Positions 31,272-55,783 of a DNA stretch of 64,000 bases are shown in pieces. Where the stretch lies: IMG/VR virus record IMGVR_UViG_3300045988_179151. The stretch is one strand, 5' to 3'. How positions within the stretch are numbered: position 1 is the stretch's first letter; the number at the start of each line of letters is the position of its first letter. This DNA comes from a virus. The position numbers and the translations under genes were made by a program. Below the pieces are notes generated by a model. The model worked only from the letters and a program-made list of their open reading frames with translations. It did not search any database and had not been told where the DNA came from.

Positions 31272-32771
31272 ATGGAAGAATCAATTGCACAAAGCGTCTC
31301 ATCGCTTATTCCCACAATTCTTATTGCACTTGTTGTAATCGGACTCATCTTGACAATTCTAGTTAAAGGCTACGTGAACGCTAAACCAAACGAAGTCGTC
31401 GTTATCACAGGTCTTCGTAAACAACGTCACTTACGAGGTAAAGCCGGATTTATGATTCCGTTCGTTGAACGACGCTCTTATCTTGACATCGAACAATTCT
31501 CAACTGACGTTCGAACCTCAGAAGCCGTTCCAACGCTTGATTTCATTAATGTTCGTGCCGATGCCGCGGTTAAGTTGAAAATCGGAACCACTGACGAAAT
31601 GATTGCCCGCGCTTCAGAAAACTTCTTGAACTGGAATACAAAAGATATTTCAAACTCCGTTCAAGACGTACTAGAAGGAAATCTTCGTGAAGTGATCGGT
31701 CAGATGGAACTTCGTAAGATGGTTAACGACCGTCAAGAATTCGCTTCAAAAGTACAAGACAACGTAGCACCTGACTTGGCTAAAATGGGTCTGGAAGTCA
31801 TCGCCTTTACCGTTCAATCTTTCTCTGATGAAGGTGGCGTTATCGATAACCTCGGTATTGAAAACGTTGAAACCATCAAGAAAGATGCATCTATCGCGAA
31901 AGCTCGAGCTGAACGTGAACGTAAAGAAGTTGAAGCAGAGCAAGACAAACTCGCTAACGACAAACGTGTTGAAGCGGATCTAGCTATTGCTCAAAAACAA
32001 AACGAACTAGCTCTTCGTAGAGCCGCTCTGAAACAAGAAGCTGACATTGCTCAAGCTAAAGCAGATGCTGCTCGTGGTATCGAAGCTGAAGTTCAACGTC
32101 GTGAACAAGAGCGCGTGGCCGCTGAAGCCAACATCATGAAACAAGAAAAAGAAGCTGAAGTTAAGGAACGTGAAGTTAAAGTCCGTGAACAAGAATTAGA
32201 CGCTAACGTCCGTAAGCAAGCGGAAGCTGAGAAATACGCTCGTCAACAAGCCGCAGAAGCTGAATTAATTGAACGTCAACGCAAGGCCGAAGCTGAGCTC
32301 TTTGAAACACAAAAAGAAGCAGAAGCTCGTAAAGCTCAAGCCGAAGCTGAGAAGTTTGCTCAATTGCAAGAAGCTGAAGCTATTGAGGCTAAAGGTCGTG
32401 CAGAAGCTGAAGCTATTCGTTTGAAACTAGAAGCCGAAGCCAAAGGTTTGGATCAAAAGGCAGAAGCGATGAAGAAAATGCAAGAAGCAGCCATTACCGA
32501 AATGGTTGTCGACAAATTGCCTGAAATTGCACGTGCCGTTGCAGCACCACTTAGCAAAGTTGACAAAATCACTATGTACGGGGAAGGTAACTCTGGTAAA
32601 CTCGTTGGTGATATCATGTCCAGCATGGACCAAATTACAAACGGAATGGGCTTGAACATTCAAGAACTCATCACCGCAACACTTACCGGTCGAGCTATGG
32701 GTCGTGCTCAAGCAGAAGCTATCGACGCACCAGTCGTTGAACCTTCAACTGACGACGAACCATTCACCTAA
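31272..32771 (+). CDS. Flotillin / SPFH (band-7) family membrane protein with a long EA-rich coiled coil
   Basis: N-terminal TM (LIPTILIALVVIGLILTILV), an SPFH-like region, then about 200 aa of AEAE/KQ-rich coiled coil. Confidence 0.6.
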   Translation: MEESIAQSVSSLIPTILIALVVIGLILTILVKGYVNAKPNEVVVITGLRKQRHLRGKAGFMIPFVERRSYLDIEQFSTDVRTSEAVPTLDFINVRADAAVKLKIGTTDEMIARASENFLNWNTKDISNSVQDVLEGNLREVIGQMELRKMVNDRQEFASKVQDNVAPDLAKMGLEVIAFTVQSFSDEGGVIDNLGIENVETIKKDASIAKARAERERKEVEAEQDKLANDKRVEADLAIAQKQNELALRRAALKQEADIAQAKADAARGIEAEVQRREQERVAAEANIMKQEKEAEVKEREVKVREQELDANVRKQAEAEKYARQQAAEAELIERQRKAEAELFETQKEAEARKAQAEAEKFAQLQEAEAIEAKGRAEAEAIRLKLEAEAKGLDQKAEAMKKMQEAAITEMVVDKLPEIARAVAAPLSKVDKITMYGEGNSGKLVGDIMSSMDQITNGMGLNIQELITATLTGRAMGRAQAEAIDAPVVEPSTDDEPFT

Positions 32772-32781
32772 TCACATTAAA

Positions 32782-32812
32782 AGACATTCCAAGTTGGAGT
32801 GTCTTTTTTTAT
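32782..32812 (+). terminator. Rho-independent terminator
   Basis: agacattcc-aagtt-ggagtgtct followed by ttttttt. Confidence 0.6.
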
Positions 32813-33243
32813 TTATAATTTAACATCTAATCTTTTTGTCTTTTTCATCGACTAACGTCGCTTCGCGCACTTATCCATATAATTCATTCTTCTTTTCATC
32901 TCGAAGCCAACCCAAGGTTGACTTCGTTTTAAATTTTGAATGAACTAAAGAGAATTGCGCTTTATAGTTAAAACCAAATGATAAACTCATTTGTTTTTAA
33001 TTTCTCTCTCTCCGCTACATTCGTAACTATTCTCAATCACATCTTAGAATTAAGATATTGAGAAAGACTTTGGCTCTGGCTTGCATTACCTTTTTCATAT
33101 ATTCGTTAAAACAATTGATACTCCTATGAAAATTTCCATATTGAAAATCAAAAACTTAAAAACAACAATCAATCGTTTTAACACCTCATTTAGCCAAGGT
33201 CTCTCCCAGTATCTTAATCGAACTCGTAGAAAGGATCTCACTC

Positions 33244-33948
33244 GTGTATATTGCAACTAACAAACCTTACGCTGTCTTCGTATTAGGCGCAGGCGGAACC
33301 GGTTCATGGTTATGTTCGTTCCTTGACAAAATGTCATTACACAATAATGTTATTGTCATGGACGGGGATATCGTTGAACCAAAAAATGTTCTCCGCCAAA
33401 ACTTCAAAATGCAGGACGTCAACGCTAACAAAGCAGAAGTCGTTGGAAAAAACAATATGATGAGCTACGTACATGGCTTCATCACAGACACAAGTATCTT
33501 CCATCAAATTCTTGAAGAATTCCCCAAAGATACCATTCCAATGCTCATCGGCTGTCTCGACAACAATGCATCTCGTAAAATTGCTCATGACTTCGTAAAC
33601 GAAGTTGACAACGCCGTTTGGATTGATGGCGGTAACGCTGAACGACACGGTCAAGCTTACGTCTGCATCAAAGAGAACGGACAAATTGTCGAAGGCTTCG
33701 AATCACCTATCGCTATCGAACCCGCTTTCCAAAACTTTGAAGGTGACGAACGTCGTCCAGACCAAATCTCCTGTGCGGAACATTCTGAAAGTGCTCCCCA
33801 GAACGTTACAGCAAACGTAACATCCGCTAACGTGCTTTTCAACATCATGACCATCTTCTTAAATGGCGGTGCTTTGATGACCAATAAATTCATCTTTGAC
33901 ACTCGAACCATCACTGTCACACCTATGATGGCTCAATCTAACGCATAA
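33244..33948 (+). CDS. E1-like (ThiF/MoeB-family) adenylation-domain protein (234 aa, GTG start)
   Basis: VFVLGAGGTGSWL is a GxGxxG Rossmann motif. MDGDIVEPKNVLRQNF matches the ThiF/E1 D.D.VE.SNLNRQ motif. RBS agaaaggat. Confidence 0.5.
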   Translation: MYIATNKPYAVFVLGAGGTGSWLCSFLDKMSLHNNVIVMDGDIVEPKNVLRQNFKMQDVNANKAEVVGKNNMMSYVHGFITDTSIFHQILEEFPKDTIPMLIGCLDNNASRKIAHDFVNEVDNAVWIDGGNAERHGQAYVCIKENGQIVEGFESPIAIEPAFQNFEGDERRPDQISCAEHSESAPQNVTANVTSANVLFNIMTIFLNGGALMTNKFIFDTRTITVTPMMAQSNA

Positions 33949-34039
33949 AAATAATCAACTTGACCGCTATGTCATTAAACTGGCAAAAAACATATTTAAA
34001 GAAAGGGCATAAGATAAATCTTATGCAGGTAATGCAAAA

Positions 34040-34693
34040 ATGGCATTCGAAAATATCCAAAAAATCAACATCATTGGCGCTCCCGAAATCGCTGTACCAT
34101 CAACAATGACTGTTGAACAAGTACTTCAAACTATGAACTATAACTTGTCTGACTACGAACAACGCGTAGAAGGCTCAACTCTTATCTTGTCAGCCGCGGC
34201 CGGCTCTAAAGGTGCGCTTGAAAACCGTATCGTTGACGGACGTCTCTTGCCTGTCGGAGGTTCTACGTTCCCAACAGACCAAGATATCGAACTTCTTGCA
34301 TCTCTTCCTCAATTCCAAGATGACAACTTCTTCGAAACAGTGGAAGACCCAGCTAAATTGCAAGAATACTATGACTACTTGACAACCAACGCAGAACAAA
34401 TCTTGCAAAATCAAGCCGCTGCACACCGTGCAAAACTTGAAGAAGACGCCAAAGAAGCTGTCGCTAAATTAACAGAAGTTCTTGACGCTGTCACATATTA
34501 CGCAACTAAAGTTGGAAACCCAATCCAACCAGCTATCACTAGTTTCGTAAAAGACTCTATTCAAAAATTTGAAAACTTTGCAGAATTGGCAAAAGCATCT
34601 GACATCGCAGCACTTCGTGCAGCTCGTGAAGAAGAAGCCGAAGCAACGCTTGTTGAAGAAGTTGAAGCGCAAATTGCAGCTGATCAAGACTAA
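34040..34693 (+). CDS. Acidic alpha-helical hypothetical protein (217 aa)
   Basis: Glu/Asp/Ala-rich. Ends ...EEVEAQIAADQD with no Gly-Gly terminus. Followed by a terminator. Confidence 0.4.
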   Translation: MAFENIQKINIIGAPEIAVPSTMTVEQVLQTMNYNLSDYEQRVEGSTLILSAAAGSKGALENRIVDGRLLPVGGSTFPTDQDIELLASLPQFQDDNFFETVEDPAKLQEYYDYLTTNAEQILQNQAAAHRAKLEEDAKEAVAKLTEVLDAVTYYATKVGNPIQPAITSFVKDSIQKFENFAELAKASDIAALRAAREEEAEATLVEEVEAQIAADQD

Positions 34694-34700
34694 TTCAGCT

Positions 34701-34730
34701 AAATAGGTGGTTCATTCGAGCCACCTATTT
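34701..34730 (+). terminator. Rho-independent terminator
   Basis: aaataggtgg-ttcattcgag-ccacctattt, a perfect 10-bp stem. Confidence 0.6.
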
Positions 34731-34814
34731 GCGCTTATGGCGAAACTGGCAGACGCGCAAGACTCAACGTCTTGTATCCTTTTGGACGTCTAGGTTCGAA
34801 TCCTAGTAAGCGCC
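34731..34814 (+). tRNA. tRNA-Leu (anticodon CAA), type II with a long variable arm
   Basis: Acceptor gcgctta/taagcgc; anticodon stem caaga/tcttg with loop ctCAAcg; T-arm ctagg-ttcgaat-cctag; long variable arm; no encoded CCA. Confidence 0.6.
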
Positions 34815-34836
34815 TTAATATAATAAAGTAAAGGAA

Positions 34837-36195
34837 ATGCAAATGACAAACTTTAGTAATACAGCATCCAAATTTGGATCTACCACTCGCACTATCAAAA
34901 TGGATAAAACATTTGATTTTAACAGTTTCTTATCTAAAACATTCTTAGAACCAAACCCTGAAAAATTTGAACCAACAAGTCTCGCACACATCAACGATGA
35001 GACAATCACCAAAGGTGTTCTTAAAACAATGATCGTTGCCGGAAACGGAGCTTTCAATTTAATTCCATCCAAATACGGATTCTCTATCCAAAGCAATAAC
35101 GAATCAGCCTTGGGCCCTGCATACCCATCACTCGCAAACGGATGTTTCATCACAGAAAACCCGGCTCCAAAACTACCACGAAAAGCTTTGGAAACTGTTA
35201 TGGAATGGTACCGTCGAATCACGTTCAAAAACGGTGAAGAAGCTCAAGTCGTATTCTACTGGAATCAATACAAATTTGAAACTATTAAAGACGACATGGG
35301 CGTAGAACACGTCATTAAAGACATTCCTGGCGTTCATTTTTGGACTGACGAATTATTCTCATACACTCCAAAACAATACAACCATGGAACTTTGACTGAA
35401 GTTGCTGAAGAAGATGAATGGTACGAAGTCTTTAACCGAAACTTCGGAATGTACGTCGAAACCCATTCTCATAACAAAATGGACGCATTCGCATCCGGAA
35501 CCGATGAAGATAACTCAGCTAATGACGGCTTCCAATTGGTCTTCGGTCGATTGGACACTGAAAACCCGATTATGTATTCGTGGATGACCATGAACCGTGT
35601 TCTTCGTCTTGGTATGCAAGAACATGAACTTGCAAAAATCATGGAAATGAACCCATCTAGTCACTACGACACAGCAACAGAAAAACTTGTCTATAAAGCA
35701 AATGATTTAACATTTGACGACTCTCTATTCGACGAATGGGACAAACAAGTTATTCCACGACCAGTACGCCCAGTTACAACAACCACTACCTACGGACAAA
35801 CCGGTAGATATGGCGGATATTGGGATAACTACTACGATGAATACTATGGTGGTTACTACGGATCATCAAACCGTTACGCTTATGGCAAAGGATACAAACA
35901 ACCTAAAAACCAATACGCCGCTCGTTCAAAAGAAGAAAAAGAAGATTTCATCCGTACAACTGTTGCTGACGTTCTCGATCAATCTGTTGTCTATCAAATC
36001 TTGCGCTCTCAAGACGAAGGCATCGACCTCGACATCGTTACAAGTCTTATTGAAGAAGCATTCGTTCGTGGATATAAAGCCCATGAAAAACAACCAACTG
36101 TTTTCTCTCAATTCAATGAAAAACGAATTGAAACAGCAATCCGAACAGAAGCTCGTGATATTCTAGAATCATGTTACGAAGTTAGCGACATCTAA
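34837..36195 (+). CDS. JAB/MPN (JAMM) metalloprotease-domain protein with a Tyr/Gly-rich low-complexity C-terminal region (452 aa)
   Basis: ETHSHNKMDAFASGTD matches the JAMM motif H-x-H-x7-S-x2-D exactly, with an upstream Glu. C-terminal ...GRYGGYWDNYYDEYYGGYYGSSNRYAYGKGY. Confidence 0.6.
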   Translation: MQMTNFSNTASKFGSTTRTIKMDKTFDFNSFLSKTFLEPNPEKFEPTSLAHINDETITKGVLKTMIVAGNGAFNLIPSKYGFSIQSNNESALGPAYPSLANGCFITENPAPKLPRKALETVMEWYRRITFKNGEEAQVVFYWNQYKFETIKDDMGVEHVIKDIPGVHFWTDELFSYTPKQYNHGTLTEVAEEDEWYEVFNRNFGMYVETHSHNKMDAFASGTDEDNSANDGFQLVFGRLDTENPIMYSWMTMNRVLRLGMQEHELAKIMEMNPSSHYDTATEKLVYKANDLTFDDSLFDEWDKQVIPRPVRPVTTTTTYGQTGRYGGYWDNYYDEYYGGYYGSSNRYAYGKGYKQPKNQYAARSKEEKEDFIRTTVADVLDQSVVYQILRSQDEGIDLDIVTSLIEEAFVRGYKAHEKQPTVFSQFNEKRIETAIRTEARDILESCYEVSDI

Positions 36196-36197
36196 TA

Positions 36198-36229
36198 AGT
36201 CGAGGTCGTATGACCTTGACTTATTTTTA
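36198..36229 (+). terminator. Rho-independent terminator
   Basis: aagtcgaggtc-gtat-gaccttgactt followed by atttttat. Confidence 0.6.
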
Positions 36230-36245
36230 TTAGAAAGGACCAAAC

Positions 36246-36494
36246 ATGCAACCTAAATTTGATATTGGCGATACAGTTCTCATTCTAGATTTAACCGACG
36301 AACAAAAAAGAAACTACGGGCCCTCATGGGTGCGTGGTATGAATGAATACATAAATCAACAAGCTGTAATCTTAGATAAAACTGAGGTAAGAAACCAATA
36401 CAGATATAAGATCAATTTGGACTCCGGCTTGTATTGGTGGGACTCCGTTAGTTTCCAAAAAGGAATCGCAAACAATCAACTACTATGGTTCTAG
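36246..36494 (+). CDS. Small protein, family A (C-terminal ...NNQLLWF)
   Basis: RBS aaaggaccaaac. C-terminus matches the shared NNQQLW[IFL] motif. Confidence 0.5.
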   Translation: MQPKFDIGDTVLILDLTDEQKRNYGPSWVRGMNEYINQQAVILDKTEVRNQYRYKINLDSGLYWWDSVSFQKGIANNQLLWF

Positions 36495-36506
36495 ACGGGA
36501 TAATAC

Positions 36507-36791
36507 ATGGACAAACCTCAACCAAAATTCAAACCAGGTGATACCGTTCGCATCAAAGATCTACCAGATTTCGAATTGCGCGCTCAATCACATGGTTGGC
36601 TCACAGAGATGGACCAATATATTGGACAAACCTTAACAATCAACCGCGCCATATATCGTCAGAATACAAACGCAACTATTAATCACCGAGACGAATACGT
36701 ATGGGTGTATATCGTCCATGAAAATAACTGGACTTTCGAGGAATACGTCCTCGAACCCTATACAGATAACTGCCAACTTGTTTGGATTTAA
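36507..36791 (+). CDS. Small protein, family A (C-terminal ...NCQLVWI)
   Basis: KFKPGDTVRIKDLPDFELRAQSHGW is shared with the next paralog. Confidence 0.5.
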   Translation: MDKPQPKFKPGDTVRIKDLPDFELRAQSHGWLTEMDQYIGQTLTINRAIYRQNTNATINHRDEYVWVYIVHENNWTFEEYVLEPYTDNCQLVWI

Positions 36792-36808
36792 CTATAAAAA
36801 GGATACCT

Positions 36809-37102
36809 ATGGATAAACCTCAACCAAAATTCAACAGAGGTGATAAGGTTCATATCAAAAATTTACCACATTCTGAACTAGAAACCCAATCACATGGTTG
36901 GAATCATCTTATGGACGGATATATTGGACGAACACTAACAATCAAAGATCCTTCATATCGTTGCAATACAAACATTGAACAAAATGGTCGAAATGAACAA
37001 GTGTGGATATATTTTGTTCGTGAAACCGGCTGGTCTTTCGAAGAACACGTCCTTGAACCACACATAGACAAGATAAACAATCACCAACTTGTTTGGATTT
37101 AA
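36809..37102 (+). CDS. Small protein, family A (C-terminal ...NNHQLVWI)
   Basis: Start MDKPQPKF after RBS aaaaaggatacct. Paralog of 36507. Confidence 0.5.
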   Translation: MDKPQPKFNRGDKVHIKNLPHSELETQSHGWNHLMDGYIGRTLTIKDPSYRCNTNIEQNGRNEQVWIYFVRETGWSFEEHVLEPHIDKINNHQLVWI

Positions 37103-37120
37103 CTATAGAAAGGAAAACCT

Positions 37121-37393
37121 ATGTTCGAAAAATTAATCGCAGTTGTTTCAATTGAAGAAAAACCTGTACCCGAAGAAACAACGCCAACTACAACAGAATT
37201 AGAACCTCAAACCGAACCCGCAACTGAAGACCAATCACTACCTGAACCAACAACTGAAAGTCAAGCTCATATTGACTGGCGACAAAAAAAAGAACAATTC
37301 ATTCAACAATTCTGCCACGGGGAAGAACCAACTGGCGGATTAGCTGAAATTATGGCTGCATCTATTGGCGCTGAACCTGAATTTTACGCATAG
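37121..37393 (+). CDS. Small acidic Pro/Glu/Thr-rich protein (90 aa)
   Basis: RBS agaaaggaaaacct. Low-complexity EPxTEP repeats. Confidence 0.4.
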   Translation: MFEKLIAVVSIEEKPVPEETTPTTTELEPQTEPATEDQSLPEPTTESQAHIDWRQKKEQFIQQFCHGEEPTGGLAEIMAASIGAEPEFYA

Positions 37394-37406
37394 AAAGGAC
37401 AAAATC

Positions 37407-38099
37407 GTGAATATTTTCGATAATTCTATCCGACGCTTCACAAACATCGTCACACCCATTACACGTAAAGAAAAAACAACTAAAGAATTACCTTTAGCTG
37501 TTGGTCTTTACACTCAAAATATCACAACAGAAGCATTCGACTTCTTACAAATGTACTATCACGGTGGCGGTGTTTACACCGCCGTATCGTTTGTTCTTGA
37601 CAACAAACAAGGACTCCGCGTATCCCATGGAAAATTAGTTGAAGACTTATTAAACTATCCGGAACAGCCCCGAAAAGTCAAAAAGTTAGAAGTCTTTGAA
37701 AACCCGATTAACGGAAAACCTGTTGCAACAAATCTACGAATCAAAACGATTGGAACATTTGCTGTAAATGACGATTCCGCATTAAAGGAACAATTAGTTA
37801 CAAACGGTATTGCCATCGCAACCTTTGATAATAAAACGTTCCAACTCATCGACGCTCGCCACAGTGATTATGAACACGAACTTGGCATTTGGTATTCACC
37901 AACAAGCCAATTCACCGAACTCCGCACTGAACCAAATGGGGATTTCATCAAGGCCGTACAAACTGTTCGTTCTCAAGCAAATCAAAACATCAACGTCGAA
38001 CCAGCACATATCGCACAAAAACTATTAACATACACATTCCCAATCCTACAAAAACAGCTCTTTTATGACATTATTCAACCATGTTTAGCGACACGTTAA
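37407..38099 (+). CDS. Hypothetical protein (about 230 aa, probable GTG start)
   Basis: RBS agaaaggacaaaatc before GTG. No motif recognised. Confidence 0.4.
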   Translation: MNIFDNSIRRFTNIVTPITRKEKTTKELPLAVGLYTQNITTEAFDFLQMYYHGGGVYTAVSFVLDNKQGLRVSHGKLVEDLLNYPEQPRKVKKLEVFENPINGKPVATNLRIKTIGTFAVNDDSALKEQLVTNGIAIATFDNKTFQLIDARHSDYEHELGIWYSPTSQFTELRTEPNGDFIKAVQTVRSQANQNINVEPAHIAQKLLTYTFPILQKQLFYDIIQPCLATR

Positions 38100-38114: not shown

Positions 38115-39050
38115 ATGTTTCTCGAAAAAAATACTATCCGAAAACCTGATTCACCAAGGTATCAAAGTACCAAACCTTGGTTATTCAACAACAGTCTTCG
38201 TAGTAAAAACCATTACGTTCCCGAATTCAAAACATTTAATAAAATTGACCATTTGTCATCACACGAAGATATCAAGCAGGGTTATATCTACGCATCCTAT
38301 GATAAATCCACAAAAACATTCACATTCGTGTTTAAACACGCTCCTGGTATTTATCGCGCATACGGTTTCCTAGAAGGGTCTGTTGATATTCCATTACCTG
38401 AACTCTATATTTACGGAAGCCTTAGCTTCGGTCAATCTGAAAACGGCACATTCTCAATTATTGGTGAAGAAATAGCCTTGGGTTCGCCTTGGCTCTCAGT
38501 TCTTCCGCTTAGCAATATTTATACGGATCGTGCAGAACCATGGCCACGCCCCACTACATCAAACGGTGAAACCATCTACTACGCTCCAATGTGTTCCGGT
38601 TCTATTTTATACAATCGAACACGAAACTCAACATCACCTCTTGAAATCATCAACAAATGTGCATCTTATTTCACGGCATTCTTATTGAATCATGGGAATA
38701 CGGACTTAAGCCTATATTCCTATGATACAGACAGTGAGTGTGACGAAGATGATGAAGAGTATCACCCTCGAACAATAACTGGCCGTGAAATCGGACGTAT
38801 TCTTGCAGATAGATCAACCGAAGACTTTACACGACAAGCTACAGCTGAAGCTTATCAAAATTATTGGCTGTTTCTCAATCAAATTAAAGATATGGATATG
38901 CCAAACAACATTTACGCTCGTATTCGAAAACATAATAACTTCGACGATGTCCTTGACGAATTTAATTTATCCATCATAGACGTTAGCGAATATTATGGCG
39001 ATTATCAATCATCAGAAACTCCGCTTATTATGCGACGTAATTACGACTAA
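38115..39050 (+). CDS. Family C protein (311 aa), paralog of 43434 and of the disrupted gene at 39065
   Basis: Shared N-terminus MF.E...PDSPR.QS..PW.FN..LR, plus IPLPELYI and LPLSNIY blocks. Confidence 0.5.
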   Translation: MFLEKNTIRKPDSPRYQSTKPWLFNNSLRSKNHYVPEFKTFNKIDHLSSHEDIKQGYIYASYDKSTKTFTFVFKHAPGIYRAYGFLEGSVDIPLPELYIYGSLSFGQSENGTFSIIGEEIALGSPWLSVLPLSNIYTDRAEPWPRPTTSNGETIYYAPMCSGSILYNRTRNSTSPLEIINKCASYFTAFLLNHGNTDLSLYSYDTDSECDEDDEEYHPRTITGREIGRILADRSTEDFTRQATAEAYQNYWLFLNQIKDMDMPNNIYARIRKHNNFDDVLDEFNLSIIDVSEYYGDYQSSETPLIMRRNYD

Positions 39051-39064
39051 AAGAAAGGAACAAT

Positions 39065-39642
39065 CATGTTCTTAGAAGAAAAAAACTATTAAACACGCAG
39101 ATTCACCTCGATTGATGAGTCTGCGTCCATGGTTGTTCTCAAAATCACTACGAACAACTAATAAATATACAAAAACTGTTAAAAAATCATATATCTACGT
39201 TGATGTTCGTTCTATTGAAGAATCAATAAGACACGGATACATTTATCTGAACCAAACCGGGGATCAATCATTTAATTTTGTTTTCAAAATTGGAAATGGA
39301 ATCTACCAACAATATGGATTTCACGATGGTTCTATCGCAATTCCACTCCCAGATATCTATATTGAAGGCGCTATTGATTTATATTACAGCGATGGCGCGT
39401 ACGAATGCAGACCAGACTTTATCACAATTGGCTCTCCGTTTCTACAACAAATCCCTCTTAGCAACATCTATTACGACTCAATTACTCCGTCATACGCGCC
39501 ACGAGAAAGCGACGGCTTCAAGATCAACTATTCAAACATCTGTTACGGTAATTCCTTCCGTAAGCTTGTTGGTCCGGTTCAAACACCACACGAAGCCATT
39601 AACAAAATTGCATCTATCATTGTTAACTGCTTCTATCAATAG
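39065..39642 (+). pseudogene. N-terminal portion of a family C gene, frameshifted in an A7 run (39080-39086) and truncated by the IS607-like insertion
   Basis: MFLEEKNY* as read. With A6 it reads MFLEEKTIKHADSPRLMSLRPWLF..., matching paralogs MFLEKNTIRKPDSPRYQSTKPWLF. The ORF stops at the IS boundary. Confidence 0.55.
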
Positions 39643-39728
39643 CCGTACATATTGAATTTTATCCATATTTATTGACATTCAATTCATCGTATGATATACT
39701 AAAATAACAAATAAAAAGGAGTACTGTT

Positions 39729-40346
39729 ATGCGAAAATATATGAAATTAAGTCAATATGCAAAAAATTTAGGAATTCACTATAAAACAGCGTGGCGACAC
39801 TGGCATGATAACAAGCTCAATGGATATCAAGATCCCGTAACAGGCACTATTTATGTGTTAGATCAAGATACGAATGTGCCAATAGGTTCTCAAATAAGAG
39901 CGATTTTATATGCACGTGTTTCAAGTACAACTAACAAAGCTTCTTTAGACGGTCAATTGGATAGAATGCGTCAATTTGCCGCTGCAAAAGGATACACTGT
40001 TGTCGATGAACGAAAAGAAATTGCATCTGGTTTAAATGAAAACAGAAAACAATTATTACCGCTTCTTTCTCGACAAGATTATGATGTTTTAATTGTAGAA
40101 CATAAAGACAGATTGAGTCGATTTGGTTCCACATATATTGAACAAGCTTTGATTAATAATGGTGTAAAATTAGAAATTATTAATAAAATTGAAAATAAAG
40201 ATAATGAACTTATTGACGATTTTATTTCTATTATTACAAGCTTTTGTGGTCGCATTTATGGACGCAATCGCAAGACTAAAACACAAGAAATCATAAACCA
40301 ACTAGAATTGACACCTGAAAGGACAAAAGATGAAACTAGCGTATAA
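39729..40346 (+). CDS. tnpA: IS607-family TnpA: MerR-like HTH plus serine recombinase/resolvase catalytic domain
   Basis: MKLSQYAKNLGIHYKTAWRHW is the HTH. AILYARVSSTTNKASLDGQLDRMRQFA is the Ser-recombinase active-site region. Confidence 0.7.
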   Translation: MRKYMKLSQYAKNLGIHYKTAWRHWHDNKLNGYQDPVTGTIYVLDQDTNVPIGSQIRAILYARVSSTTNKASLDGQLDRMRQFAAAKGYTVVDERKEIASGLNENRKQLLPLLSRQDYDVLIVEHKDRLSRFGSTYIEQALINNGVKLEIINKIENKDNELIDDFISIITSFCGRIYGRNRKTKTQEIINQLELTPERTKDETSV

Positions 40347-41931
40347 AATCGCATTTCCTGATGAGTTAATAGACACATATGATTTCTTACAAAAAGAATT
40401 CAATCGCGTCTTATCTGATGAATATATGCGTGAATCTATTTTATCAATTGACAATGAGCTTCATCCTGGCAAATATTGGCCACTATTGCGTGATCTCATA
40501 GGTCAAGATACTCAATATAAATGGAAAACAGATAAACGCTTTCCGTCACCATCTTGGTATTTTTGTGCGTTTGCTGAACAAATTCGTCAAATTCACAAAT
40601 CTCAAAAAGAACAACTAGCTCTTTATGACGCCTTACAACGCTTTGATAATAACGATAACGTCGAATTTTATCAATATTGTATGAATAATAGTATTCCATT
40701 TAATAAAGCAAAAGTTAAAAATCTAAAGCGGTGCGATGAACGCCCAGAATTACCGTATTCAGCTACCTTTGTCCTTGATTTTGCCTTTATCAACAGTCAA
40801 GCCGCTAAAATGGTAGATAATACATTCCACTATGCGATTTTCAACGAAAACAATAAACTCATATGGAATCAGTTACCAATTATCTTTCATCAATCAAGTA
40901 AATATCAACCAGGAATGCGTGTAAGTAAACCTAGATTTTCAAAAGATGAAGACGGTAATTATTACGGAGTAGTCTCTTTTGATTTTGAAGAAAGTGTCAC
41001 ATTTGGTGAAAATATTGCTGCTATTGATTTAGGTAAAATTAATTTATATACATTCGCATACATTCGTCCAGATGGTACTTATAGTGACAATTATTTCATT
41101 CATTCAAAAATGATTGAACGGTTAAAACAAAAACTTGAAACATTATATAATGAAAAAGCAATTTTAATCGAAAAAAATAAGCATGTTGACGAACTTTTCA
41201 AGTATTCTGACTATATTCCTGATGCAAGCCTTAAAAAATGGATACTGCGTCAAGGCAAAATAGAACGTTTATCAACAAAAATAACAGCAATTAAAGATGC
41301 TATCAGTGCTGAAATGAGTGCCGAAATAGTTGAATTGTGTCAAAAACACAATTGTTCTACTCTTTTTATGGAAAATCTTAGTTGGTTAGAATCCGTAGGA
41401 GGTAAGTGGAATCATAGTGTTCAACAAGATACCATTGCCTTAAAATGTGCACAAAACGGTATTGCTGTATATAAAGTAAACGCAAAAAATACCAGCAAAG
41501 CACATCCTATTACAGGCGAATTAGGCAAAGAATTAGGCCGAAATATCATTTGGTCAAATGGCGACATACTTGATAGAGATTTTGTTTCTTGTTTAAACCA
41601 AATTCAACGAAAAGGAAAACGTCGTACATCTCATCGACGAATTGAGACAAAACAAGGAATTCAATTAAAATCTCTCCGAGATAAACATCAGCCAACACCA
41701 AAACGCACTAAGCGACAAACTAGTCGACGTTATGAAAATCTAAAAAAACTAGAAAACTTAAAAAATAAAAACACTTCAAGAACTACACAAATGGTGGTAG
41801 TTCTTCCACGAATTAGCAACGATTATCCAGCAACGTGGTCTTGTGTTGATAAAAAGTCAATACAAGAGGGTAACAATTGCATGAGACGTACAGATGTCTA
41901 TAAAAAGTCATACATGTACATCTGCAATTGA
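40330..41931 (+). CDS. tnpB: IS607-family TnpB-like RuvC nuclease (533 aa), no zinc finger
   Basis: IAAIDLGKINLYTF is RuvC-I; TLFMENLSW is RuvC-II; GDILDRDFVSCLNQIQRKG is RuvC-III-like. Its 3' end is homologous to the noncoding region at 255-345. Confidence 0.6.
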   Translation: MKLAYKIAFPDELIDTYDFLQKEFNRVLSDEYMRESILSIDNELHPGKYWPLLRDLIGQDTQYKWKTDKRFPSPSWYFCAFAEQIRQIHKSQKEQLALYDALQRFDNNDNVEFYQYCMNNSIPFNKAKVKNLKRCDERPELPYSATFVLDFAFINSQAAKMVDNTFHYAIFNENNKLIWNQLPIIFHQSSKYQPGMRVSKPRFSKDEDGNYYGVVSFDFEESVTFGENIAAIDLGKINLYTFAYIRPDGTYSDNYFIHSKMIERLKQKLETLYNEKAILIEKNKHVDELFKYSDYIPDASLKKWILRQGKIERLSTKITAIKDAISAEMSAEIVELCQKHNCSTLFMENLSWLESVGGKWNHSVQQDTIALKCAQNGIAVYKVNAKNTSKAHPITGELGKELGRNIIWSNGDILDRDFVSCLNQIQRKGKRRTSHRRIETKQGIQLKSLRDKHQPTPKRTKRQTSRRYENLKKLENLKNKNTSRTTQMVVVLPRISNDYPATWSCVDKKSIQEGNNCMRRTDVYKKSYMYICN

Positions 41932-42222
41932 ACCATTCAACATTTAGATGTAAACGCTAATGTCTATAAAGAAGCATATGCTCAATATTGGTCACTATTG
42001 AATCTACTATCTCGAAATTATGCACCAAACGAATTGTACCAACAACTCGCCAATTGCAATGAACAACAAATACTCAGAAATCTTCTCAGTGATAACAATA
42101 TTACTCTAGAAGATATCACACAAAACTCAAAATGCATCAATAATAATTACGTATGGAAACCTGGTGATGATGATGACGATGAAGACGATTACGACGACGA
42201 AGATTATGATGATGAATGGTAA
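41932..42222 (+). pseudogene. C-terminal remnant of the IS-disrupted family C gene, ending in a poly-acidic tail
   Basis: In frame immediately after the tnpB stop: ...VYKEAYAQYWSLLNLL... aligns with paralogs (AYQNYWLFLNQI / HYTRYWILLNYL). Ends GDDDDDEDDYDDEDYDDEW. Confidence 0.5.
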
Positions 42223-42264
42223 CCAAAACAAATGGCACCACACTCAAAACCAAACCTAGAAAGG

Positions 42265-42921
42265 AACTACCTAATGACTGAAAAAGAACTCTTATATCAA
42301 ATCACCTCAACCACTATCGATCAGCTAATCGAATTAGAAACACCAACATGCACCTCAATTGTAGAAGCTACAGAGAACCAAAAAAGTCTTTATAATAAAA
42401 TCATTCCATTTCTAATTGAAAACAGCCATCTTGATGAAGTATTTGCGACAATCGTAGAAGGATCCACTGAAAAATTCATCTTGCCACATAATCTCAACGA
42501 TTTCATTAAGTTGTATGATGATACCTATCTACATCCAATCACCATCAACGGCGAAACCATTCTACCGCAAACGGCTCGAATGCTTAATAACAACCAAATT
42601 ATGGACGTTCGTGCCTACGAAGAAGAACGACTCGAACAACTTCTCCCACAAATGCTCGAAGCTTACCCATTGTTCATCATCAAATTATTGAACGACAAAC
42701 CAGACTTCGATCAACCCCAAATCAAAGAAGCAATTGATGCATATATTCAAAAATACTACATTAAACCGCTTCTCGACGTGATTCCTGATGCAATCGTCAC
42801 CTACGAAATCAACGACCTCGTTCATTTCACCGTCGATTTGTCAAAAGTAGAAAACCCAGAAATCGCTGCATTGTCTATTCCTAAAGGGAATTTCCACACA
42901 TATACTATTACAATTATTTGA
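42265..42921 (+). CDS. Hypothetical protein (about 218 aa)
   Basis: Start MTEKELLYQ after RBS ctagaaaggaacta. Confidence 0.4.
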   Translation, partial: NYLMTEKELLYQITSTTIDQLIELETPTCTSIVEATENQKSLYNKIIPFLIENSHLDEVFATIVEGSTEKFILPHNLNDFIKLYDDTYLHPITINGETILPQTARMLNNNQIMDVRAYEEERLEQLLPQMLEAYPLFIIKLLNDKPDFDQPQIKEAIDAYIQKYYIKPLLDVIPDAIVTYEINDLVHFTVDLSKVENPEIAALSIPKGNFHTYTITII

Positions 42922-42929
42922 GGTATTCC

Positions 42930-43397
42930 ATGTTAGATCAACTTAAAAATTTTAATCAAGCAACACGAAAACCAGGTGTCACTCATATATCACAAGAAAT
43001 CATGATTAGTGACCTTCCAACCATTTTCTCACAAAAACTCATCCTCTTGCCACTATCAGAGACATCGCTACTTTACTCCGCTGAAGATTTTCCAGAACAA
43101 TACGAGCCTGTCCACTATAATGAGACAAATAATGTTGTTACGCATTACATCCTTAAATCGGGTGATGAAGGTGACTCAACATCAATCACGTCATACCTTA
43201 TTGAATTCCTCGAAACTGGAAAAGTAACCCCTCGAAAATCAAACGGTTCAACGAACATTCACAACATTCCACTTCCAGCCTATCCAATTGAAGAATACAA
43301 TGGTGAATATGTTCCATGTGTTCTATTGAAAAACAATAAACGTGCGATTATCGAGCCAAACGGCAACATTATCGAAGGTGTAGAGTTCGCCCAATAG
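42930..43397 (+). CDS. Hypothetical protein (about 155 aa)
   Basis: Start MLDQLKNF after RBS tgaggtattcc. Confidence 0.4.
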   Translation: MLDQLKNFNQATRKPGVTHISQEIMISDLPTIFSQKLILLPLSETSLLYSAEDFPEQYEPVHYNETNNVVTHYILKSGDEGDSTSITSYLIEFLETGKVTPRKSNGSTNIHNIPLPAYPIEEYNGEYVPCVLLKNNKRAIIEPNGNIIEGVEFAQ

Positions 43398-43433
43398 GCG
43401 ACTCTCACCACTTTATATAGAAAGGATTCATTC

Positions 43434-44294
43434 ATGTTTTACGAACAACAATTTGTCCATAACCCAGACTCTCCTCGAAAACAATCACCAATCCCATGGG
43501 CTTTTAACAAAACACTGCGCACCGGTCACAAACATATCAACACACTTAAAAGCCAAATTCATATCGATCATCGAGATATTGAAGAAGAGATCGCGCAAGG
43601 ATTTGTTTATCTTCAAACGTCAGACAATAAATACATTGACTTCCTCTACAAAATTCCAGCGGGAACCTACACGATTTACGGATTTCGTCGAGGTTCTATT
43701 GACGTTCCACTACCTGAATTATACGTTGCAGGACGTTTGAAATTTAACAACAATTCCCTTGTATACCATAACATTCGTCTAGGCTCACAATATCTACCAC
43801 TACTACCTCTTTCAAATATTTATAACTACGATGATTCTGAATCTTTTGAAATTGATACCTCAAATGGTCAGCCAATCTATTATATGAAAATGTGTACAGG
43901 ATCTGCACTTCGAGATCTTATCGGCGAAGTCAACAATCTTATGGAAGCTGCTAACAAACTTCAAACTATCCTTATTCCGTTCTTCCTTCGATATGGAAAC
44001 AACGATTTACGATTATGTCCTTTAGAAGCAGACTCTTTAAATTCAATCACTGCTCGATCCATTTCATATTTCCTTCAAGACAAACTCACTATTGCATCCG
44101 ATCATTATACACGCTATTGGATTCTACTAAATTATCTACATCAAAAATATGACGCCAATACTATCTACCGAAAACTTGGCTCTATGAATCAGCGACATGA
44201 GGTTTTTGACGAATTTGGTATTACAGCATCTGAATTACAAGAACGTTATCGAGAATATCAATCATCTGCAAATAAAAATCGAATTATTAATTAG
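43434..44294 (+). CDS. Family C protein (286 aa)
   Basis: MFYEQQFVHNPDSPRKQSPIPWAFNKTLR... paralog of 38115. RBS agaaaggattcattc. Confidence 0.5.
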   Translation: MFYEQQFVHNPDSPRKQSPIPWAFNKTLRTGHKHINTLKSQIHIDHRDIEEEIAQGFVYLQTSDNKYIDFLYKIPAGTYTIYGFRRGSIDVPLPELYVAGRLKFNNNSLVYHNIRLGSQYLPLLPLSNIYNYDDSESFEIDTSNGQPIYYMKMCTGSALRDLIGEVNNLMEAANKLQTILIPFFLRYGNNDLRLCPLEADSLNSITARSISYFLQDKLTIASDHYTRYWILLNYLHQKYDANTIYRKLGSMNQRHEVFDEFGITASELQERYREYQSSANKNRIIN

Positions 44295-54212: not shown

Positions 54213-54215
54213 AAC

Positions 54216-54863: not shown

Positions 54864-54877
54864 AGGAGAACGCCCCC

Positions 54878-55759: not shown

Positions 55760-55783
55760 TCAATTCGAAAAAGGAACAAACAC

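What the first reader, a model, noticed from the sequence alone, without database searches (positions are those of the whole stretch)
33244..36195. E1-like adenylation enzyme and JAB/JAMM isopeptidase flanking an acidic protein and a tRNA: a minimal ubiquitin-like conjugation/deconjugation pair
The E1-like protein (33244-33948) has the ThiF GxGxxG motif and the D.D.VE..N..RQ motif. It is compact, with no obvious E2, rhodanese or CxxC domain.

The JAB protein (34837-36195) carries an exact JAMM motif (E...HSH-x7-S-x2-D) plus an odd Tyr/Gly-rich tail.

Between them lie a 217-aa acidic helical protein (no C-terminal Gly-Gly) and a tRNA-Leu. No Ubl with a GG terminus and no E2 are evident.

The pair could be a phage-encoded counter to Bil-type Ubl-conjugation defences, or an assembly-linked Ubl system of the kind predicted near phage tail genes. 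Either way it differs from described 4-gene Bil/6E operons.
Basis: partly seen in the sequence, partly recalled or inferred. Interest (0 to 1): 0.7.

Follow-up and report, generated by a model that had tools for sequence, protein, structure and literature searches.

The report
Phage-encoded ubiquitin-like protein system
A giant-phage-like element of a Gram-positive bacterium carries a three-gene unit for a ubiquitin-like protein, its activating enzyme and its trimming protease.

Summary
33244-33948 encodes a compact E1/ThiF-type adenylating enzyme, and 34837-36195 a JAMM/MPN+ metalloprotease whose catalytic residues are invariant in 46 homologues. A tRNA-Leu lies between them.

The claim that no Ubl is present is wrong. 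Residues 1-58 of the 217-aa acidic protein (34040-34213) form a small beta-grasp-type domain ending in an invariant AG[ST]KG.

Related elements carry this domain in three forms:
- stand-alone 57-58-aa proteins that stop exactly at that Gly;
- head-to-tail polyproteins of 2-5 copies, which match Pfam Prok_Ub at E 3e-27;
- fusions to a C-terminal extension, as in this window.

These are the gene architectures known for ubiquitin.

E1, Ubl and JAB are adjacent in all three lineages where an E1 was found:
- the window's uncultured lineage;
- a variant of it with a stand-alone Ubl;
- cultured Bacillus jumbo phages and phage-plasmids (vB_BceM_WH1, pBtic235).

The Bacillus versions also carry a Prok-E2_D protein. 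No E2 is detectable in the window.

The closest known class is the uncharacterised "6D"/PRTRC operon type, not Bil or CBASS.

The most likely mechanism is that JAB exposes Gly58, E1 adenylates it, and the Ubl is conjugated to protein targets, with JAB reversing the link. Targets and biological role are unknown. I rate it a new variant of a known kind.

The parts
32779..32807 (+). Terminator-like hairpin after the upstream SPFH/flotillin gene. It marks the 5' boundary of the E1-Ubl-JAB unit.
   Evidence: 13-bp stem followed by a T-run.
33244..33948 (+). E1-like adenylating enzyme, 234 aa, a single ThiF-type domain. It has GAGGTG, D40/D42/E45/N48/R51, K63, D106/R111, and an invariant Cys177 in 'ISCAE' (codon 33772-33774).
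   Evidence: Pfam ThiF 1.5e-14. Best NCBIfam model is PRTRC_ThiF, 9e-19, aligned end to end but below its cut-off. Residues are invariant in 39 homologues. The profile hits Ubl-activating E1s in the PDB at about 5e-15.
34040..34213 (+). Ubiquitin-like domain: residues 1-58 of the 'acidic protein', ending in the invariant AGSKG. Gly58 (codon 34211-34213) is the predicted mature C-terminus.
   Evidence: The AF2 model shows beta-beta-alpha-beta-beta followed by a loop with pLDDT below 50 at residues 54-60. G55, K57 and G58 are invariant in 21 homologues. Stand-alone homologues stop exactly at this Gly, and tandem polyproteins join there. hhalign against Bacillus phage poly-Ubl repeats gives Prob 95.9, E 5e-9. 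Those repeats match Pfam Prok_Ub at 3e-27.
34214..34693 (+). C-terminal extension of the Ubl fusion: residues 59-217, pI 4.2. It has a conserved hairpin and helices (R63, G67, P71, FPT77-79, D82-I83) followed by a variable coiled coil. It is predicted to be released by cleavage after Gly58.
   Evidence: In L005 this part is a separate gene next to a 64-aa Ubl gene.
34731..34814 (+). tRNA-Leu(CAA) embedded in the operon. It is not a conserved part of the system.
   Evidence: ARAGORN. Relatives have no tRNA at this position, but carry arrays of 6-12 tRNAs downstream of the module.
34837..36195 (+). JAMM/MPN+ metalloprotease, 452 aa. It has an N-terminal beta-rich domain, then the JAB core with E135 (35239-35241) and HSH-x7-S-x2-D (35464-35505). 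A disordered Tyr/Gly-rich linker follows (residues 313-356, nt 35773-35904), then a helical C-terminal domain (residues 365-450).
   Evidence: Weak PRTRC_A hit over the JAMM motif, E 1e-3. The Bacillus orthologue hits PRTRC_A at 3e-8.
36194..36225 (+). Terminator-like hairpin directly after the JAB stop codon. It marks the 3' boundary of the three-gene unit.
   Evidence: 14-bp stem followed by a T-run.
37121..38099 (+). Two genes that always follow JAB in the window's lineage: a 90-aa protein (37121-37393) and a 244-aa protein (37365-38099). The 244-aa protein has many invariant polar residues (YYHGGG, NLRIKT, DxRH). Function unknown.
   Evidence: Synteny in L001, L003 and L013-L015. No family hits.
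42232..44294 (+). The rest of the conserved module: a 229-aa protein (42232-42921), a 159-aa protein (42918-43397) and a 286-aa protein (43434-44294). The 286-aa family has invariant P125..N128 and C154-x-G156 and is a speculative candidate for a divergent E2.
   Evidence: Synteny. The motifs are collinear with Prok-E2_D, but hhalign gives E 0.11, which is not significant.
38115..42222 (+). Window-specific interruption of the module. It holds a 311-aa paralogue of the 286-aa family (38115-39050). A second paralogue is split by an IS607-type insertion: N-part 39112-39642, the IS with serine recombinase and TnpB-like gene at 39729-41931, and C-part 41998-42222.

Best explanation
The three-gene unit between two terminator hairpins (33244-36195) is a phage-borne ubiquitin-like protein (Ubl) modification system.

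Shown by computation:
- Gene 2 encodes a Ubl precursor: a 58-residue beta-grasp-type domain ending in AGSKG, fused to a 159-residue acidic helical protein.
- Gene 3 encodes a JAMM metalloprotease with a complete active site.
- Gene 1 encodes an E1-type adenylating enzyme with all adenylation residues and an invariant cysteine.

Inferred:
- The JAB protease cuts after Gly58. This frees the Ubl with a C-terminal glycine and releases the acidic protein in equal amounts, as happens with ubiquitin-ribosomal-protein fusions and polyubiquitin.
- The E1 dimer adenylates Gly58 with ATP, and probably takes the Ubl onto Cys177 as a thioester.
- The Ubl is then transferred to lysines of target proteins. 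Transfer is either direct, as in archaeal SAMP/UbaA, or through a conjugating enzyme too divergent to recognise.
- JAB can also remove the Ubl from its targets.

Targets are unknown. They could be virion proteins or host proteins. In Bacillus jumbo-phage relatives the same trio sits with a Prok-E2_D enzyme and a 4-5-copy poly-Ubl gene.
For: Ubl identity:
- The AF2 model of residues 8-52 is beta-beta-alpha-beta-beta, followed by a low-confidence loop exactly over the invariant AGSKGAL.
- A profile of this domain, searched against 1.84 billion proteins, finds 57-58-aa proteins that end at ...GSKG (P0296, P0299, P0323), and 2x and 4x tandem polyproteins with AGTKG junctions (P0313, P0318, P0319; E 9e-8 to 5e-7). 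It also finds C-terminal fusions.
- In L016-L018 the stand-alone 58-aa gene sits between ThiF and the fusion gene, followed by JAB.
- In L005 the two halves of the fusion are separate genes.
- hhalign of the window domain against Bacillus phage poly-Ubl repeats gives Prob 95.9, E 5.4e-9.
- Those polyproteins match Pfam Prok_Ub at 3.4e-27 (5 repeats), 1.4e-16 and 1.4e-13.

JAB:
- The JAMM residues are invariant.
- The top fold matches are all Ub/Ubl-cleaving JAMM enzymes, including the bacterial BilC-type DUB 8tyx.

E1:
-.

Linkage:
- E1, Ubl and JAB are adjacent in the window, L001, L003, L013-L015 and L016-L018.
- In Bacillus, Cytobacillus and Sporosarcina jumbo phages and phage-plasmids (L007-L012), JAB and E1 are adjacent. 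The poly-Ubl lies 3 genes upstream in L007-L011. No Ubl was found in L012.
- These are the only genes those two loci sets share locally.

Precedent:
- BilC pre-processes BilA at a conserved Gly that is followed by up to 9 residues (PMC10557695).
- Iyer et al. predicted JAB release of fused Ubls (PMC1779556).
Against: - No biochemical data exist for this family or for the 6D/PRTRC class.
- The window's Ubl domain does not hit Pfam Prok_Ub or ThiS directly. Its link to them is transitive.
- The tail ends in Lys-Gly, not Gly-Gly.
- Strong conservation continues past Gly58 (R63, FPT, DI). That could mean the junction is a structural loop rather than a cleavage site.
- No E2 was found in the window.
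- In L005/L006 no E1 lies within 10 kb of JAB.
- Conjugation targets are entirely unknown.
Confidence: 0.62

Rival explanations
1. Sulfur-carrier pathway. The small beta-grasp protein would be a ThiS/MoaD/TtuB-type carrier. The E1 would adenylate its C-terminal Gly and convert it to a thiocarboxylate, for tRNA thiolation or cofactor synthesis. JAB would only mature the carrier.
For: - TtuB is the best beta-grasp structure among the (non-significant) Foldseek hits.
- P0318 shows a ThiS Pfam match at 9.7e-5.
- A tRNA gene lies inside the operon, and tRNA arrays lie next to the module in relatives.
- ThiF and MoeB are related to this E1.
Against: - Neither the E1 nor any gene scanned has a rhodanese domain.
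- Pfam and NCBIfam scans found no cysteine desulfurase, PP-loop thiouridylase (TtuA/NcsA), ThiG, MoaE or other sulfur acceptor among the neighbours.
- The E1 profile ranks Ubl-activating E1s above ThiF and MoeB.
- Poly-Ubl genes and an E2 in the sister lineage fit protein conjugation, not sulfur transfer.
Confidence: 0.1
2. Processing only, with no conjugation. The Ubl domain would be a folding or assembly chaperone, or a structural repeat. JAB would cut it off or cut it apart during morphogenesis, as proposed for lambda tail assembly proteins I and K. The E1 would have an unrelated adenylation role.
For: - The lambda/T1 TAPI (Ubl) and TAPK (JAB) precedent (PMC1779556).
- The WH1 poly-Ubl gp211 is annotated 'virion structural protein' in its GenBank record.
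- Conservation continues across the junction.
Against: - E1 is adjacent to JAB in every lineage where an E1 was found, across very divergent elements. It keeps all adenylation residues and an invariant Cys.
- Stand-alone Ubls that end exactly at Gly need no processing, yet they sit next to E1.
- The Bacillus relatives carry an E2.
Confidence: 0.13
3. Counter-defence. The JAB would strip host Bil-type Ubl or CBASS cGAS conjugates from phage or host proteins. The E1 and Ubl would act as decoys or competitors.
For: - The top fold matches include the BilC-type DUB.
- PADLOC E1-E2 (CBASS Cap2) models hit the E1 Rossmann region, E 5e-9 over about 65 residues only.
- The element carries other host-manipulation genes: NAD salvage, a NUDIX hydrolase, and a SpoT-like hydrolase.
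Against: - The system has its own cognate Ubl, in mono, poly and fusion forms, with a tail (AGSKG) matched to it.
- No PADLOC hit for JAB or the Ubl.
- E1, JAB and Ubl co-vary as one unit.
- Nothing links it specifically to Bil or CBASS.
Confidence: 0.07

Closest known systems
Operon type '6D' of Iyer, Burroughs & Aravind 2006, which I equate from memory with the TIGRFAM PRTRC system of plasmids and ICEs (ParB-related, ThiF-related cassette). Function uncharacterised.
   Same: - The best-scoring models for the E1 and JAB are PRTRC_ThiF and PRTRC_A.
- The E1 lacks a rhodanese domain.
- JAB carries an extra N-terminal domain.
- The Ubl is small and has a conserved C-terminal Gly.
- The system is carried on mobile elements.
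- The Bacillus jumbo-phage sister module has Prok_Ub, Prok-E2_D/PRTRC_B, PRTRC_A-like JAB and PRTRC-like ThiF.
   Different: - All scores are far below the curated cut-offs: 67.7 against 144.75, and 18.7 against 101.8.
- No ParB or PRTRC D/E/F proteins were found among the genes scanned.
- No E2 was found in the window.
- The Ubl is fused to a coiled-coil protein here, or is tandemly repeated in the Bacillus phages.
- The host element is a jumbo phage or phage-plasmid of Firmicutes, not a proteobacterial plasmid or ICE.
Archaeal SAMP / UbaA / HvJAMM1 sampylation and Thermus TtuB/TtuC (from my own knowledge of those systems)
   Same: The parts list is the same minimal set: a single-domain E1-like enzyme, a small beta-grasp Ubl with a C-terminal Gly, and a JAMM protease, with no E2 or E3. 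This is the precedent for E2-independent conjugation.
   Different: - SAMPs and TtuB end in Gly-Gly and double as sulfur carriers.
- UbaA-type E1s are MoeB-like. The NCBIfam UbaA model scores only 17 bits against a cut-off of 450.
- This system is phage-borne and has no sulfur-pathway context.
BilABCD (type I and II) antiphage ubiquitination systems
   Same: - A Ubl with a conserved Gly followed by extra residues is pre-processed by a JAMM DUB, which also deconjugates (PMC10557695).
- The structure of that DUB is among the top fold matches.
   Different: - The Bil E1 is a large multidomain enzyme with inactive adenylation, active adenylation and Cys domains. It works with a dedicated E2.
- This E1 is 234 aa with no detectable E2.
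- There are no PADLOC Bil hits.
- The system is encoded by the virus rather than the host.
Eukaryotic ubiquitin genes (polyubiquitin; UBA52/RPS27A fusions)
   Same: The same three gene architectures occur: stand-alone, head-to-tail polyprotein with a short C-terminal cap, and fusion to an unrelated protein. All require cleavage after the terminal Gly.
   Different: - The domain is much smaller, about 50-58 aa with four strands.
- The tail is AG(S/T)KG rather than LRLRGG.
- The predicted processing enzyme is a JAMM protease.
Lambda/T1 tail assembly proteins I (Ubl) and K (JAB + NlpC/P60)
   Same: A phage-encoded Ubl with a conserved Gly, linked to a C-terminal domain and paired with a JAB peptidase (PMC1779556).
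   Different: Lambda has no E1. Here there is no NlpC/P60 domain and no tail-gene context.

Membership tests
E1-like / ThiF superfamily (Pfam PF00899) | HMM score above the gathering threshold | tested here: met
   54.2 bits against a cut-off of 28.1, E 1.5e-14.
E1-like / ThiF superfamily (Pfam PF00899) | Adenylation residues: GxGxxG loop, DxD...N..RQ, the Lys, and the Mg-binding Asp in (C/V)xDN..(S/T)R | tested here: met
   G15-G20, D40, D42, E45, N48, R51, K63, D106 and R111 are invariant in 39 homologues.
E1-like / ThiF superfamily (Pfam PF00899) | A cysteine able to accept the Ubl (thioester or acyl-disulfide) | tested here: inconclusive
   Cys177 ('ISCAE') is invariant. Its equivalence to ThiF Cys184 or the E1 catalytic Cys is inferred from position only. 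The PDB alignments stop before it.
PRTRC system ThiF protein (TIGR03736) | Score at or above the curated cut-off of 144.75 | tested here: not met
   67.7 bits. It is the best NCBIfam model and aligns 6-229 to 9-242 of 245. This makes it a relative, not a member.
JAMM/MPN+ metalloprotease | Catalytic Glu plus H-x-H-x7-S-x2-D metal site | tested here: met
   E135, H210, H212, S220 and D223 are invariant in 46 homologues.
JAMM/MPN+ metalloprotease | MPN fold | tested here: met
   Foldseek against the PDB: Rpn11 at 1.8e-4, bacterial Ubl-DUB 8tyx at 2.1e-4, then AMSH. Prob 1.0. The model core has pLDDT above 90.
JAMM/MPN+ metalloprotease | Pfam JAB or Prok-JAB HMM hit | tested here: not met
   No Pfam family at E <= 0.1. 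Only PRTRC_A at 1e-3, over 50 residues.
Prok_Ub (PF14454) / ubiquitin-like beta-grasp | Direct HMM match | tested here: not met
   No Prok_Ub or ThiS hit for six N-terminal domains, even at E <= 10.
Prok_Ub (PF14454) / ubiquitin-like beta-grasp | Profile-level homology to bona fide members | tested here: met
   hhalign Prob 95.9, E 5.4e-9 against Bacillus phage repeats. Those repeats score 94.5 bits on Prok_Ub. The whole-library profile search finds them at E about 1e-7.
Prok_Ub (PF14454) / ubiquitin-like beta-grasp | Beta-grasp fold | tested here: inconclusive
Prok_Ub (PF14454) / ubiquitin-like beta-grasp | Conserved glycine at the functional C-terminus | tested here: met
   G58 is invariant. 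Stand-alone forms end at it, and tandem copies join at it.
6D / PRTRC operon type | E2 (Prok-E2_D / PRTRC_B) with a conserved Cys and a downstream His | tested here: not met
   An HMM built from five Bacillus E2_D proteins finds nothing in the window. The 286-aa family shares collinear motifs, but hhalign gives E 0.11 and it has no conserved downstream His. The feature is present in the sister lineage: Prok-E2_D 1e-6, PRTRC_B 7e-6.
6D / PRTRC operon type | ParB-related protein and PRTRC D/E/F proteins in the cassette | tested here: not met
   NCBIfam scans of 22 window ORFs found none. Not every ORF in the window was scanned.
BilABCD / CBASS Cap2-Cap3 | Multidomain E1 or E1-E2 fusion, dedicated E2, and a CD-NTase (for CBASS) | tested here: not met
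   The E1 is 234 aa with a single domain. PADLOC hits cover only about 65 residues of the Rossmann region. No CD-NTase or Bil proteins were found.

The most novel reading that the evidence does not exclude
Jumbo phages and phage-plasmids of Firmicutes encode their own ubiquitin-like conjugation machinery. Their Ubl genes have evolved the full set of ubiquitin gene architectures: mono, poly and fusion precursors. In the window's lineage the system works without any E2. It covalently tags virion or host proteins during infection. This would be a virus-encoded, minimal 'ubiquitin system' in prokaryotic viruses.
Probability: 0.4. Interest if true: 0.85.

Novelty: new variant of a known kind. Interest (0 to 1): 0.68.

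Why it matters
Bacterial Ubl conjugation has so far been shown experimentally only for host defence systems (CBASS Cap2, Bil). The 6D/PRTRC class predicted in 2006 has, as far as the searchable literature shows, no known function.

This finding places a relative of that class inside jumbo phages and phage-plasmids. These include cultured, tractable ones: pBtic235 of Bacillus thuringiensis israelensis, and phages vB_BceM_WH1, Edson and KLEB27-3.

It also identifies a Ubl that annotation had missed. The protein is labelled 'hypothetical' or 'virion structural protein' in database records.

The mono, poly and fusion precursor genes mirror ubiquitin genes. They give a clear and cheap biochemical test: cleavage after Gly58, then E1-dependent adenylation.

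If conjugation is confirmed, it would show that viruses of bacteria, and not only their hosts, use Ubl tagging. The E2-less version would be a minimal model for how E1-only conjugation works.

Tried and rejected
- blastn of 33000-37200 against the phage collection found no match.
- A sequence-profile search of the JAB family against the PDB gave nothing relevant. Structure was needed.
- Direct Pfam scans of the N-terminal domain were negative.
- E2 search:
  - phmmer and hmmsearch with the Bacillus E2_D proteins found nothing in the window lineage.
  - hhalign of E2_D against the 286-, 244- and 229-aa families was not significant.
  - PDB profile searches with both families were empty.
  - I therefore do not call the 286-aa family an E2.
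- The internal 'VGG' at residues 72-74 was considered as the Ubl terminus and rejected. It is not conserved: relatives have KGH, GR, GN or DN there.
- The small ORFs at 36246-37102 were considered as Ubls and rejected. They form a multicopy family with only sub-threshold SH3-type hits and a hydrophobic C-terminus.
- The giant multi-repeat 'hits' of the Ubl profile (P0301, P0306, P0326) are cadherin-like DxDGDxL repeats and are spurious.
- Host identification failed. Two genome-contig scans, one with the JAB profile and one with the TnpB-like protein, found nothing.
- No papers were found on vB_BceM_WH1, on KLEB27-3, or on phage-encoded E1/JAB/Ubl systems. The pBtic235 paper does not mention these genes.
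- No homology was found between the fusion's C-terminal part and the small or large proteins of the Bacillus module.

Full report
**1. What is in the sequence**

*E1-like enzyme.* 33244-33948 (GTG start, 234 aa) is a single-domain ThiF/E1-type enzyme.
- Pfam ThiF scores 1.5e-14, above the gathering threshold.
- The best NCBIfam model is PRTRC_ThiF. It aligns end to end at 9e-19 but falls well below its curated cut-off.
- In an alignment of 39 homologues down to 24% identity, these positions are invariant: the nucleotide loop GxGGTG, D40, D42, E45, N48, R51, K63, D106, R111 and one cysteine, C177 in 'ISCAE'.
- There is no CxxC zinc site and no rhodanese domain.

*JAB protein.* 34837-36195 (452 aa) has no Pfam hit.
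- E135, H210, S211, H212, S220 and D223 are invariant in 46 homologues.
- An AlphaFold model has mean pLDDT 82, with the core above 90.
- Its best PDB matches are Rpn11, a bacterial Ubl-deubiquitinase complex (8tyx) and AMSH, at E about 2e-4 and probability 1.0.
- The 'odd tail' is a disordered Tyr/Gly-rich linker (residues 313-356) followed by a helical domain.

*Boundaries.* Strong terminator-like hairpins lie at 32779-32807 and 36194-36225. E1, the acidic protein, tRNA-Leu and JAB therefore form one bracketed unit. The promoter scan was not above chance.

**2. The missed component: the acidic protein is a Ubl precursor**

The 217-aa protein (pI 4.2) has a strongly conserved N-terminus.
- In 21 homologues G55, K57 and G58 of 'AGSKG' are invariant. 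The internal 'VGG' at 72-74 is not conserved.
- The AlphaFold model gives beta(8-11), beta(17-18), alpha(25-31), beta(39-44) and beta(47-52). A loop with pLDDT below 50 follows at 54-60, exactly over the invariant motif. Then come a hairpin and long helices.

I searched a profile of residues 1-60 against 1.84 billion representative proteins. It found:
- proteins of 57-58 aa that end precisely at ...GSKG (P0296, P0299, P0323);
- polyproteins of two or four head-to-tail copies with '(K/V)AGTKG' at each junction and a short C-terminal cap (P0313, P0318, P0319);
- fusions with other C-terminal extensions (P0316, P0328).

The very large multi-repeat hits are cadherin-like repeats and are spurious.

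Context supports the domain boundary.
- In contigs L016-L018 the order is ThiF, stand-alone 58-aa Ubl (stop codon directly after the Gly), 210-aa Ubl fusion, JAB.
- In the distant element L005 the two halves of the fusion are separate neighbouring genes. The first ends '...TGSKGL'.

The link to a named family is transitive but solid.
- The window's domain family aligns to the repeats of Bacillus phage polyproteins with hhalign probability 95.9% and E 5.4e-9.
- Those polyproteins match Pfam Prok_Ub ('prokaryotic ubiquitin') at 3.4e-27 (five repeats), 1.4e-16 and 1.4e-13.

Direct Pfam scans of the window's domain were negative. Fold searches were not significant. TtuB, a ThiS-like Ubl, was the best beta-grasp among the Foldseek hits.

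**3. Conservation and context**

The window looks like part of a very large phage or phage-plasmid of a Gram-positive host.
- GC content is about 38%.
- It encodes an LPXTG/G5 surface protein, a Pnkp-like RNA repair enzyme, a D5-type primase-helicase, NAD-salvage genes and IS elements.
- Relatives in IMG/VR are classed as viral contigs of 55-222 kb.
- Relatives carry arrays of 6-12 tRNAs just downstream of the module.

In the window's lineage the gene order is conserved in L001, L003 and L013-L015:
- E1, Ubl fusion, JAB;
- a protein of about 90 aa, then one of about 240 aa;
- proteins of about 225 aa, 150 aa and 290 aa.

In the window this module is interrupted by two extra paralogues of the last gene. 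One of them is split by an IS607-type insertion.

A translated search found JAB homologues in cultured Bacillus jumbo phages (vB_BceM_WH1, Edson, vB_BauM_KLEB27-3). It also found them in 215-266-kb 'plasmids' of Bacillus, Cytobacillus and Sporosarcina. These include pBTHD789-2, which I identify with pBtic235, a circular jumbo prophage (PMC9700832).

There the module is:
- a poly-Ubl of 2-5 repeats;
- a small acidic protein;
- a protein of about 510-560 aa;
- an E2, then JAB, then ThiF.

The E2 hits Pfam Prok-E2_D at 1e-6, above threshold, and PRTRC_B at 7e-6. The JAB hits PRTRC_A at 3e-8. The ThiF hits PRTRC_ThiF at 1e-25 to 2e-29. NCBI already annotates one of these proteins as 'prokaryotic E2 ligase family D'.

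Between the two lineages, only E1, JAB and the Ubl are shared locally. That makes the trio the conserved functional core.

**4. Is there an E2 in the window?**

None is detectable.
- An HMM built from the Bacillus E2_D proteins finds nothing.
- The 286-aa family (43434-44294, with paralogues at 38115-39050 and 39112-39642) has invariant P125..N128, C154-x-G156 and a GNxDL motif. These are collinear with 'PFxN...ICWG...PFNxDL' of E2_D.
- However, hhalign gives only E 0.11, and the family lacks the conserved downstream His.

I leave this as an untested candidate.

**5. Mechanism**

*Shown by computation.* The parts are a Ubl-type domain with an invariant Gly at a flexible boundary, a catalytically intact JAMM protease, and a catalytically intact E1-type adenylase with an invariant Cys. 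All three are strictly linked.

*Inferred.*
- JAB cuts after Gly58. This frees the Ubl and releases the acidic helical protein, by analogy with BilC processing of BilA (PMC10557695) and with the prediction of Iyer et al. for fused Ubls (PMC1779556).
- E1 adenylates Gly58 and probably forms a thioester on Cys177.
- The Ubl is then conjugated to lysines. This happens either without an E2, as in archaeal SAMP/UbaA (my own knowledge), or through an unrecognised E2.
- JAB reverses the modification.

The E1 profile matches Ubl-activating E1s in the PDB better than ThiF or MoeB, and no sulfur-pathway partners are nearby.

The biological role is open. The WH1 poly-Ubl is labelled 'virion structural protein' in GenBank, but this is an annotation only and I could not verify it. 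In the Bacillus elements the module sits near RepA or ParM and replication genes.

**6. Comparison with known systems**

The closest known class is operon type 6D of Iyer et al. 2006: a small Ubl with a C-terminal Gly, a helical protein, an E2 with Cys and a downstream His, JAB with an N-terminal domain, and an E1. I equate it from memory with the PRTRC cassette of plasmids and ICEs. No experimental function for it turned up in the literature searches.

The window's system is not a member by the curated cut-offs. It also lacks the E2 and ParB.

It is not Bil, which has a multidomain E1 and a dedicated E2, and it is not CBASS Cap2/Cap3. In its parts list it most resembles E2-less sampylation.

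What is new:
- the Ubl is identified;
- the Ubl genes show ubiquitin-like architectures (mono, poly, fusion);
- the carrier is a phage;
- this lineage apparently lacks an E2.

**7. Verdict**

I rate the system a new variant of a known, bioinformatically predicted but uncharacterised kind. It can be tested directly in cultured relatives.

Confidence in the Ubl-E1-JAB mechanism is about 0.6. Confidence that it conjugates proteins in vivo is lower, about 0.4-0.5.

Noticed in passing
39112-42222: An IS607-type element (serine recombinase 39729-40346, TnpB-like 533-aa protein 40330-41931) has inserted into a paralogue of the 286-aa family. The N-terminal fragment is 39112-39642 and the C-terminal fragment is 41998-42222.
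   Followed up: partly
36246-37102; L001:6054-8180: Three tandem small paralogues of 82, 94 and 106 aa share a GD.V.I motif, sub-threshold SH3-type Pfam hits and a conserved hydrophobic C-terminus (..QL[LV]W[FI]). A relative carries eight tandem copies directly upstream of its E1. The family always lies close to the Ubl module, but its function is unknown.
   Followed up: partly
31272-32771; L007:15237-16310: An SPFH/flotillin protein is encoded immediately upstream of the E1 (Band_7 5e-24, Flot 5e-7). Bacillus phage vB_BceM_WH1 also has a Band_7 protein (3.9e-26) three genes downstream of its ThiF. This could be a recurrent association or a coincidence.
   Followed up: no
L016:4364-5314: One variant element carries both a stand-alone 58-aa Ubl gene, ending GSKG then stop, and the full 210-aa fusion gene. 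The two Ubl domains are almost identical, which points to a recent duplication truncated exactly at the Gly.
   Followed up: yes
L007:8158-9057; L008:5168-5917; L009:3147-3854; L010:3168-3905; L011:3538-3879: The poly-Ubl genes (2-5 repeats) of cultured Bacillus and Cytobacillus jumbo phages and phage-plasmids are annotated 'hypothetical' or 'virion structural protein'. They match Pfam Prok_Ub strongly. The small proteins that follow them end in a conserved D(V/I)D(Y/F)I motif.
   Followed up: partly
53499-57313 and 29433-30107: NAD-salvage cluster: NMN transporter 53499-54212, ribose-phosphate pyrophosphokinase 54878-55759, and NAMPT 55784-57313. A NUDIX hydrolase lies at 29433-30107. This set is typical of large phages that counter NAD-depleting defences.
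   Followed up: no
16076-18505: An 809-aa fusion of a P-loop kinase, a metallophosphatase and a T4-type RNA ligase (Pnkp-like RNA repair). KLEB27-3 has a separate RNA ligase and polynucleotide kinase near its Ubl module.
   Followed up: no
463-8863: Two very large ORFs of 1230 and 1586 aa. The second has six G5 domains and an LPXTG sortase anchor, which points to a Gram-positive host. This is unusual cargo for a phage.
   Followed up: no
48180-48671: A 163-aa protein matches the N-terminal HD hydrolase region of RelA/SpoT (TIGR00691, 2e-16). It may be a (p)ppGpp hydrolase.
   Followed up: no
L001:15389-20685; L013-L015; L003:15906-16679: Arrays of 6-12 tRNA genes lie 1-2 kb downstream of the Ubl module in relatives. 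The window instead has a single tRNA-Leu(CAA) inside the operon.
   Followed up: partly
L005:12604-17142: The distant element L005 has a duplicated four-gene cassette downstream of JAB (232/225, 118/115, 233/219 and 140/157 aa). Its 232/225-aa proteins are remote homologues of the window's 286-aa family (hhalign E 1.3e-3; hmmsearch 1.5e-6). No E1 lies within 10 kb of JAB.
   Followed up: partly
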